From assembly GCF_009914755.1 (NCBI RefSeq), contig NC_060943.1: 64,000 bases of DNA; one strand, written 5' to 3'. This DNA comes from the human T2T-CHM13v2.0 reference genome, Homo sapiens. The position numbers and the translations under genes are program-made. Below are positions 22,100 to 24,017 of this stretch, one piece after another. Below the pieces are notes generated by a model that was not told the origin of the DNA, made no database searches, and worked only from the letters and a program-made list of their open reading frames with translations. Positions within the stretch are counted from its first letter, which is position 1, and each line of letters begins with the position of its first letter.

Positions 22100-23543
22100 G
22101 GAACAAACAAGAACAGCATAGCATCTGCAGACAGAGAAGCAGCAGCAAATCAGCGGAGGCCAGGATTGATAGCTTCCCCATTTCGGGTTTTGGTAGACAG
22201 GAAGGACGGTGACCCAGACACTGAAAAATACCAGCATGCTGAACTTAAGGATTGGCTTATTGAAAATGTCAGGCAAGTTCCTGGCCAGAAAAGCCACATT
22301 GAAGCTCCCATGAGCCAAGGAACCCAGGATTCACAGAACAGTCAATAACCAAATCGTGGTTTTATGTGAAGATGACATATTCAGGCTCAGATTATGTATC
22401 CACATGCATGAAGGCTGTAGTCATTCCCCATGAAATTCCTCCCACTTCAGCATCCCAAAGTGTTGGGATTACAGAGTCACTTAGATCAGGGAACTGATAG
22501 CAATGACAAAATTAGGTACCCCCGACACTAACCCGTGCCTTATCCGTCTCTTGCATGTTTACCTTGAAGGTCAGAACTGCAGTGATCGTTTTGTCCAAAC
22601 TATGCAAACAAGTAAACATGACTCCAAATTTGTGGTTTTTGTGTTTTTTTGAGACAGGGTCTCGCTCTGTTGCCCAGGCTAGAGTGCAGTGGCACCATCA
22701 CAGGTCACCGCAGCCTCAGGTTGAAGCCATCCTCCCGTCTCAGCCTCCCGAGGACCTGGGACTATGCCACCATGCCCAGCTAATTTTTTATCTTTATTTA
22801 TTTATGTATTTATTTATTTATTTATTTTTGAGATAGAGTTTCACTCTGTTGCCCAGGCTGGAGTACAGTGGCGCGATCTCAGCTCACTGCAACCTCCTCC
22901 TCCCAGATTCAAGTGATTCTCATGCCTCAGCCACCCAAGTAGCTGAGATTACAGGTGTGCCTCCCACCATGCCCAGCTAACTTAAAAAATATTTTTAATA
23001 GAGATGAGGTTTCAGCATGTTGGCCAGGTTGGAAACCAACTCCTGGCCTCAAGTGATCCACCCACCTTGCCTCCCAAAGTGCTGAGATTACAGGCATGAG
23101 CTACTACACCCAGCCATTTTTTTTATTTTTTGTAGAGACAGAGTCTCACTACATTGCCCACACTGGTCTCAAACTCCTGAACTCAAGCAATCCTCCTACC
23201 TCAGTCTCCCAAAGTGCCAGGATTACAGGCATGAGCCACTGCACCCAGCCCAAATGTGATATTCCAAAGGATGCAGGTGGCTGTGTTGGGATGGCCAATG
23301 AAGGTAAGGGACAATGGAAGTACAGGGTGAGGGCAATGAACAGGACATACCTGAGAGCCTGGTTATTGGCCTTGACTATGGGAGTGCCTTCACAAAGACC
23401 CGAAAGACCCCCCCACAAAGAGGTCATAGAAGGACAGACCCAAATGGTCATTATAAACAAGGAAGGTAGCCACGCTGACAGGTAGCGATCTCACTTACAG
23501 TTTGAGTCTTGATGCTTTGTCCATGGTGTTCACTGTTCTGCAT
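22100..23543 (-). pseudogene. Vomeronasal type-2 receptor (V2R, class C GPCR) pseudogene, 7TM exon only, broken by Alus (possibly the locus named VN2R16P)
   Basis: Fragments in V2R order: [114 protein letters not shown]; frameshifts and stops; Alu block ~22630-23250. Confidence 0.9.
23499..23543 (-). CDS. ZNF490: ZNF490 exon 2 (45 bp, MQNSEHHGQSIKTQT)
   Basis: ttgtttctaattag|ATGCAGAAC...CAAACT|gtaagt; phase 0/0, links exon 1 to KRAB-A in frame; matches the remembered ZNF490 N-terminus. Confidence 0.9.
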
Positions 23544-24017
23544 CTAATTAGAAACAAGAGGATGCATTTTGTGAGTTTCAGCAATTTAGAACTAAACATG
23601 ACCTTTGACAGCCTTGGAAGCATTGTTCCCCCTGCATCTACCTGTACACACAGAGCTACCAGAAGGGTGGATCATGGGAGTTTTCAAGATTACACTGTCT
23701 CCTCTATAATGGGAAAAATGAAATATGTTTCTACTTTAAAAAAAAAATTTAGAGACAGTCTCTCTCTCTCCCAGGCTGGAATGCAGTGGCACAATCTTGG
23801 CTCACTGTAACCTCAAACTCTTAGCCTTGAGATCCTTCTGCCTCAGCCTCCGAAGGAGCTAGGACTACAGGTGAACACCATACCCAGCTAATTTTTAAAA
23901 ATTTTTTGAGAAATGGGGTCTCGCTATGTTGCCCAGGCTGGTTTTGGGCTCTTGGTCTTTCCAAGTTCTGTAGGGACACTTTAGAAAACTTATTTGAGAT
24001 AAATTTCCTTCCACTTT

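What the first reader, a model, noticed from the sequence alone, without database searches (positions are those of the whole stretch)
23440..23560. ZNF490 coding exon 2 is carved from a dead vomeronasal (V2R) receptor exon
Seen: the 45-bp ZNF490 exon 2 (acceptor ttgtttctaattag|ATGCAGAACAGTG) starts where a V2R 7TM-exon relic starts. In phase 1 the same DNA reads (D)AEQ*; past the ZNF490 donor it reads [14 protein letters not shown]...TPIVKANN...[12 protein letters not shown]. Known: the V2R last exon opens with a phase-1 D-x-E-Q-C followed by VTFLxYxDPLG and TPIVKANN, and human V2Rs are pseudogenes. Inference: ZNF490 co-opted the receptor's acceptor, paired it with an internal GTAAGT donor, and translates it in phase 0 as MQNSEHHGQSIKTQT. 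A chemoreceptor fossil would thus supply protein sequence to a KRAB transcription factor.
Basis: partly seen in the sequence, partly recalled or inferred. Interest (0 to 1): 0.85.

Follow-up and report, generated by a model that had tools for sequence, protein, structure and literature searches.

The report
ZNF490 exon reuses dead receptor's splice site
A 45-base coding exon of the human zinc-finger gene ZNF490 begins exactly at the old splice acceptor of a decayed vomeronasal receptor gene lying in its intron, a tidy but ordinary example of a gene recycling a pseudogene fragment as a new exon.

Summary
On the minus strand, 23543 to about 22099 is a complete but wrecked last (7TM) exon of a type-2 vomeronasal receptor. 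It carries 4-5 stops, a dozen or more frameshifts and a ~620-nt nested Alu insertion. RefSeq annotates only 22181-22327 as VN2R16P.

ZNF490 exon 2 (23543-23499) starts at the AG that is the ancestral phase-1 acceptor of that exon. The same AG, 11 nt before the first Cys codon, is present in 11 of 11 other human family-C loci examined, CASR included. A DNA profile of those exon starts, built without the closest paralogue, hits the window once (23556-23372, E 6.6e-10; next best 0.045).

The GTAAGT donor is not a family feature: 0 of 9 aligned paralogues have it. ZNF490 reads the 45 nt one base out of the receptor frame.

Transcript and protein use rest on the supplied RefSeq table. The age of the donor could not be tested.

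No paper in the searched library links ZNF490 to a vomeronasal relic. I rate it a new member of a known kind (exonisation of a pseudogene fragment), of modest interest.

The parts
22099..23543 (-). Relic of the last (7TM) exon of a V2R, from its first base to near the C-terminus. Heavily disabled: 4-5 stops, at least 12 frameshifts, deletions in TM1.
   Evidence: Frameshift-aware alignment to P0008 and P0016: 136 of 260 and 141 of 257 aligned codons identical. Also.
23544..23563 (-). Inherited splice acceptor: pyrimidine-rich tract (14 of 18 at -20..-3) and AG at 23545-23544.
   Evidence: AG aligned in 11 of 11 other human family-C loci. Homology to paralogue L002 starts at 23554.
23499..23543 (-). 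ZNF490 coding exon 2, 45 nt, phase 0-0, translated MQNSEHHGQSIKTQT. In the receptor frame it reads (D)AEQ*TPWTKHQDSN.
   Evidence: Supplied annotation.
23493..23498 (-). GTAAGT donor inside the old receptor exon, specific to this copy. L002 has GAAAGC at the same six bases.
   Evidence: 0 of 9 aligned paralogues have GTAAGT; 1 of 9 (L034) has a bare GT at the same columns.
23530..23532 (-). TGA where the family has its first Cys codon of this exon (TGT in L002 and CASR).
22636..23257 (-). Nested Alu insertion that splits the relic between TM2 and TM3. Limits are approximate, read from the sequence; similar short repeats flank it.
   Evidence: 622-nt jump; Alu matches.
22181..22327 (-). The only part annotated as VN2R16P (TM6-TM7).
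   Evidence: Supplied annotation. The ORF containing it (22085-22330) matches Pfam 7tm_3 profile 174-249, E 1.1e-9.
24904..25153 (-). ZNF490 exon 1. Annotated ATG at 25020 and 39 codons. It ends CTCCAG|gt, without the ATG|gt ending seen in neighbouring ZNF791.
1838..1964 (-). ZNF490 KRAB-A exon, which exon 2 splices to, 21.5 kb downstream.
   Evidence: 104 of 127 bases identical to the ZNF791 KRAB-A exon.

Best explanation
A V2R gene once lay here on the same strand as ZNF490. Only its last exon survives, as a badly decayed relic in what is now ZNF490 intron 1/2.

The relic kept its pyrimidine tract and AG. Transcripts from the ZNF490 promoter, 1.4 kb upstream, meet this as a ready-made acceptor. 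A GTAAGT 45 nt inside the old exon is found only in this copy; relative to the closest paralogue it differs at 2 of its 6 bases. It closes the exon and allows splicing on to the KRAB-A exon.

The exon is 45 nt long and is read one base out of the receptor frame, so it adds 15 residues between the exon-1 peptide and the KRAB domain without breaking the frame. Those residues bear no protein-level relation to the receptor.

Shown: the homology, the identity of the acceptor, the copy-specific donor, and frame compatibility. Inferred: that the acceptor was co-opted rather than re-invented, the direction of the donor change, and that the exon is spliced and translated as annotated. The 15 residues are most likely a tolerated linker or N-terminal extension, not a functional module.
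For: - Relic. Named database relatives of the TM6-7 piece are almost all type-2 vomeronasal receptors: 15 of 17 named entries, with 1 'hypothetical protein' and 1 generic family-3 GPCR name.
- Acceptor: CASR exon 7 starts ag|ATGCC. Solved CaSR chains are identical to the frame from ...TDASAC onward. CASR exon 6 ends GAGACAG|gtaagg. The AG sits 11 nt before the first Cys codon in 11 of 11 other loci.
- Boundary: the profile without L002 hits 23556-23372 at E 6.6e-10. Pairwise homology to L002 runs 23554-23269 at 75% identity, E 6e-46. There is no receptor signal upstream.
- Donor: L002 has GAAAGC where the window has GTAAGT. 0 of 9 paralogues have GTAAGT.
- Frame: the spliced translation is open through exons 1-5. 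Skipping exon 2 also keeps the frame.
- Use: a passage of PMC11734915 says the ZNF490 transcript is expressed in human oocytes. A passage of PMC10547255 calls ZNF490 a TRIM28 recruiter about 105 million years old that binds LINE-1.
Against: - No RNA-seq junction, cDNA or peptide was examined here. Use of the exon rests on the supplied RefSeq model (1 transcript of 1).
- No primate or other mammalian genome was available, so the direction and date of the donor change are not polarised.
- One paralogue (L034) has a GT at the same aligned columns, and the two chr9 copies have GTGAGA nearby under a 4-nt gap. GT-like strings are therefore not unique to this copy.
- Protein-level similarity over the 45 nt alone is weak. 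The boundary is carried by DNA homology.
- In L002 an Alu lies about 20 nt upstream of the AG, so that pair cannot show where homology would have ended further upstream.
- The annotated mRNA has an out-of-frame ATG 14 nt before the annotated start. How much protein is made in the annotated frame is therefore open.
Confidence: 0.85

Rival explanations
1. The exon is spliced in, but its main effect is not the annotated 15 internal residues. Translation would start at the exon's own first codon (ATG at 23543-23541), or be diverted by the upstream out-of-frame ATG. The receptor-derived piece would then act as a start-codon donor or a translational regulator rather than a linker.
For: The exon opens with an in-frame ATG made from the receptor's split Asp codon plus the next base. 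ZNF490 exon 1 lacks the ATG|gt ending that ZNF791 exon 1 has and shares no similarity with it. An ATG at 25034-25032 opens a 68-codon ORF across exon 2 in the third frame.
Against: The annotated ATG at 25020 lies upstream, in frame and without stops. Its context equals that of the upstream ATG (G at -3, C at +4). No ribosome-profiling or peptide data were seen.
Confidence: 0.1
2. The coincidence of acceptor and relic start is real, but the exon is a minor or non-functional splice product that entered the reference model from one cDNA. The main ZNF490 message would skip it.
For: Skipping keeps the reading frame. The exon shows no better conservation against L002 (34 of 45) than the relic around it (75%).
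Against: RefSeq gives a single selected transcript that contains it (supplied table). The donor matches the GTAAGT consensus in all six intronic positions, and the acceptor tract is 14 of 18 pyrimidines.
Confidence: 0.1
3. The resemblance at the 5' end is chance, and the relic really starts further in, near TM1 at about 23485.
For: tblastn and Pfam pick up only from about 23485-23430 onward. Protein-level signal for the first 35 residues is weak.
Against: DNA homology to L002 runs without a gap through the exon up to 23554. The profile without L002 aligns from 23556 with posterior support across the exon. The L002 frame reads D-E-E-Q-C ... C-L with the family's Cys spacing.
Confidence: 0.03

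Closest known systems
Exonisation of intronic sequence (the Alu and other transposon exonisation literature)
   Same: A non-coding stretch inside an intron becomes a short, frame-preserving internal coding exon once it has both an acceptor and a donor. The peptide is new and unrelated to the source's own coding sense.
   Different: The source is a decayed cellular gene exon, not a transposon. The acceptor is a real ancestral splice site that was kept, not a chance match. Only the donor is new. The papers listed deal with transposon-derived exons; none listed there describes a receptor pseudogene.
Chimeric genes that capture exons of a partial gene copy (general knowledge, recalled; not checked in any call)
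   Same: The splice signals of one gene are used by the transcript of a neighbouring gene.
   Different: Here only 45 nt of the captured exon are used. They are read in another frame, and the donor gene was already dead or dying. No receptor domain is transferred.
Human V2R pseudogenes (VN2R series)
   Same: The relic is one of these. Its closest database relatives are V2Rs. The human genome holds other such relics on chr19, 9, 11 and 16. The title of Young and Trask 2007, seen in the reference list of PMC3916702, says V2R families degenerated in primates.
   Different: The annotation covers 147 bp, while the relic spans about 1.44 kb including the Alu block. No other V2R exon was found in the 64-kb window. 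This copy contributes a coding exon to another gene.
Canonical KRAB zinc-finger gene layout, as in neighbouring ZNF791
   Same: KRAB-A exon of 127 nt and KRAB-B exon of 61 nt, followed by one zinc-finger exon. The KRAB-A exons are 104 of 127 identical (supplied table).
   Different: ZNF791 exon 1 ends in the start codon (ATG|gt). ZNF490 instead has 39 codons in an unrelated exon 1 plus the 15 receptor-derived codons before KRAB-A.

Membership tests
Family C GPCR, V2R subfamily (last-exon relic) | Match to the Pfam 7tm_3 profile in colinear order | tested here: met
   three pieces matching profile 17-68, 59-83 and 174-249. One is above the gathering score (38.8 against 33.5) and two are below it.
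Family C GPCR, V2R subfamily (last-exon relic) | Closer to V2Rs than to other family-C receptors | tested here: met
   15 of 17 named relatives are type-2 vomeronasal receptors; 53-55% of aligned codons identical to rodent V2Rs. No formal tree was made.
Family C GPCR, V2R subfamily (last-exon relic) | Phase-1 intron 11 nt before the first Cys codon of the last exon | tested here: met
   same AG in CASR, two TAS1R-like loci and 8 VN2R-like loci. Gene names for these loci are my reading of their positions and of the PDB match, not annotation.
Family C GPCR, V2R subfamily (last-exon relic) | Open reading frame (functional gene) | tested here: not met
   4-5 stops, at least 12 frameshifts, Alu insertion; no other exons found. 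It is a pseudogene fragment.
Exonised cassette exon | AG acceptor with pyrimidine tract, GT donor, length divisible by three, in frame with flanking exons | tested here: met
Exonised cassette exon | Junction reads or peptides showing use | not testable with these tools
   Only the supplied RefSeq model, plus a passage saying ZNF490 is transcribed in oocytes.
Exonised cassette exon | Lineage-restricted origin of a splice site | tested here: inconclusive
   The donor is absent from paralogues, but no orthologous genomes were available. A search with the exon-1 peptide found no protein at all.
Canonical KRAB-ZNF first exon | Start codon as the last three bases of exon 1 | tested here: not met
   ZNF791 ends AAAATG|gt; ZNF490 ends CTCCAG|gt.

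The most novel reading that the evidence does not exclude
The receptor relic did more than add a linker. When the ancestor of ZNF490 lost, or never had, the usual ATG-bearing first exon, the relic's acceptor and the ATG formed by its split Asp codon could have given the KRAB exon an in-frame start or bridge. A LINE-1-binding repressor would then owe its translatability to a dead pheromone-receptor exon. V2R relics are scattered through the chr19 zinc-finger clusters, so the same capture may have happened in other KZNF genes.
Probability: 0.12. Interest if true: 0.6.

Novelty: new member of a known kind. Interest (0 to 1): 0.33.

Why it matters
It is a clean, base-exact example of a pseudogene's splice signal outliving its gene and being reused by a neighbour. 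The acceptor is ancestral, the donor is new, and the reading frame is shifted, so the three steps of exon birth can be told apart.

It also shows that the VN2R16P annotation understates the relic roughly tenfold.

It does not change what is known about V2R loss or KRAB zinc-finger function unless the 15 residues, or the exon's ATG, prove to be needed.

Tried and rejected
- Dating the exon through orthologous proteins. The 39-residue exon-1 peptide was too short for the tool. Extended by one codon, it found no protein at E<=10, only 2 word-sharing candidates. I therefore did not spend a search on the 15-residue exon.
- Free local protein-to-DNA alignment across the acceptor with lenient frameshift costs. 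The alignments drifted 24-59 residues upstream in 4 of 5 V2Rs and started 10 residues inside in 1. The script then stopped on a motif that was not found. I judged the scoring too permissive and replaced it with separate tests against shuffles.
- Other V2R exons in the window: none at E<1.
- Shared arrangement with the closest paralogue. Its relic lies about 3 kb beyond the 3' end of a plus-strand KZNF gene on the opposite strand, so the ZNF-intron position is not an inherited unit. My ZNF791 finger query in that call was in the wrong frame and only served to locate finger repeats.
- Similarity between ZNF490 and ZNF791 first exons: none (best E 0.24).
- Earlier findings of this scan were not open.
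- Two papers read for V2R exon structure gave only 'six exons' (PMC4316634 passage) and nothing on the intron position (PMC11035023 passage).

Full report
**What is in the sequence.** On the minus strand the window reads ttgtttctaattAG|ATGCAGAACAGTGAACACCATGGACAAAGCATCAAGACTCAAACT|GTAAGT. This is the annotated ZNF490 exon 2, 23543-23499. Started one base before the exon, the frame gives DAEQ*. The ZNF490 frame gives MQNSEHHGQSIKTQT.

**The receptor relic is real and is a whole last exon.**
- Pfam 7tm_3 matches three of eight ORF pieces in profile order: 17-68, 59-83 and 174-249. The last is above the curated cut-off.
- The TM6-7 piece finds type-2 vomeronasal receptors in the protein library: 15 of 17 named relatives.
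- tblastn with seven of these receptors covers about 23430 to 22106.
- A profile of six receptors, run over all stop-to-stop ORFs of the 64-kb window, finds five pieces at E<0.1. All are on the minus strand between 23490 and 22088, in order, and nothing else scores below E 1. No other receptor exon survives in the window.
- My own frameshift-aware alignment, anchored at the acceptor, runs from the receptor's D-M-E-Q-C to within about 30 residues of its C-terminus. It gives 136 of 260 and 141 of 257 codons identical, 4-5 stops, at least 12 frameshifts and one 622-nt jump. No shuffle control was run for that full alignment; its significance rests.
- The jump is a nested Alu block, about 23257-22636, with similar short repeats on both sides.
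- RefSeq marks only 22181-22327 as VN2R16P.

**The acceptor is the family's own.**
- A search of the window's genome with the exon and its flanks found one paralogue that covers the exon: L002 on chr19, 75% identical from 23554 to 23269.
- L002 reads TTTCTAATCAG|ATGAAGAACAGTGT..., with TGT where the window has TGA. Its frame gives D-E-E-Q-C ... C-L with the family's cysteine spacing.
- A search with a full V2R found the last exons of other family-C genes and relics.
- In the locus I take to be CASR, the exon starts ttttacag|ATGCCAGTGCCTGT. Solved CaSR chains match its translation from that point. The preceding exon ends GAGACAG|gtaagg. The intron therefore splits an Asp codon after its first base, 11 nt before the first Cys codon.
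- The same AG at the same distance is present in all 11 other loci that I lined up and in the 10-row alignment.
- A DNA profile of the exon start from eight loci, leaving out L002, hits the window once at E 6.6e-10 (23556-23372), with its AG on 23545-23544. The next hit in the window has E 0.045.
- Upstream of the AG there is no receptor signal.

**The donor is new.** Where the window has GTAAGT, L002 has GAAAGC. Of nine aligned paralogues, none has GTAAGT. One has a bare GT at the same columns, and two chr9 copies have GTGAGA close by under a gap. Without an orthologous outgroup, the direction of change is an inference.

**Reading frame.**
- The exon is 45 nt. Joined by the annotated coordinates, exons 1-5 give one open frame in which the 15 residues sit between a 39-residue exon-1 peptide and the start of the KRAB-A exon. 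Leaving the exon out also keeps the frame.
- The ZNF490 frame is one base off the receptor frame, so the peptide is not receptor sequence.
- ZNF490 exon 1 is unrelated to the first exon of its head-to-head neighbour ZNF791 and lacks that gene's ATG|gt ending. The KRAB-A exons of the two genes are 104 of 127 identical.
- The annotated mRNA also has an out-of-frame ATG 14 nt before the annotated start. It opens 68 codons through exon 2 in the third frame.

**What I could not test.**
- No transcript reads, peptides or non-human genomes were available. Use of the exon rests on the supplied RefSeq model, apart from passages stating that ZNF490 is transcribed in human oocytes (PMC11734915) and that it is a roughly 105-million-year-old TRIM28 recruiter binding LINE-1 (PMC10547255).
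- The exon-1 peptide found no protein in the large library, so dating through orthologues failed.
- The supplements of these papers were not opened.

**Prior description.**
- 'ZNF490' with 'vomeronasal': 0 papers.
- 'VN2R16P': 1 paper, from its listing an lncRNA expression study.
- Wider searches on vomeronasal relics in chr19 zinc-finger clusters, on ZNF490 exons and on pseudogene exonisation listed nothing on this case.
- Subscription journals are not covered by these searches.

**Verdict.** Both the observation and the interpretation stand at the sequence level. The mechanism, reuse of a relic splice site plus a new donor to make a short frame-preserving exon, is a known kind of event. This instance is unusually clear but of modest consequence.

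Noticed in passing
window 22099-23543 (-) versus annotated 22181-22327: The VN2R16P annotation covers 147 bp, but the recognisable relic is the whole last exon, about 1.44 kb including a ~620-nt nested Alu block.
   Followed up: yes
window 25034-25032 and 23524-23522 (-): The annotated ZNF490 mRNA has an out-of-frame ATG 14 nt before the annotated start, giving a 68-codon ORF that crosses exon 2 and stops in the KRAB exon. It also has a CACCATGG inside exon 2, out of frame, followed by 18 codons.
   Followed up: partly
window 24904-25153 (-) and 25260-25422 (+): The head-to-head first exons of ZNF490 and ZNF791 lie 107 bp apart and share no similarity. ZNF791 ends in ATG|gt, while ZNF490 carries 39 codons and ends CTCCAG|gt.
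   Followed up: partly
window about 22474-22437 (-): An isolated Alu-like scrap of about 31-38 nt sits inside the receptor relic, without the rest of an Alu. Its origin is unexplained.
   Followed up: no
P0001, P0002 (protein library): Two library 'proteins' on short unnamed contigs are 100% identical to a read-through of the relic's TM6-7 part and carry a Pfam 7tm_3 label. They look like gene calls made on this human pseudogene sequence.
   Followed up: no
L002 and L036-L041 (G000:C19:11710001-11770000): The closest paralogous relic lies about 3 kb past the 3' end of a plus-strand KRAB zinc-finger gene (KRAB-A at 11742713-11742838), on the opposite strand. V2R relics and KZNF genes are interleaved, but not as a copied unit.
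   Followed up: partly
L025-L032 (G000:C9, four places): Four near-identical copies of one V2R relic lie on chr9 (39.05, 41.43, 43.41 and 79.10 Mb), presumably carried by segmental duplications.
   Followed up: no
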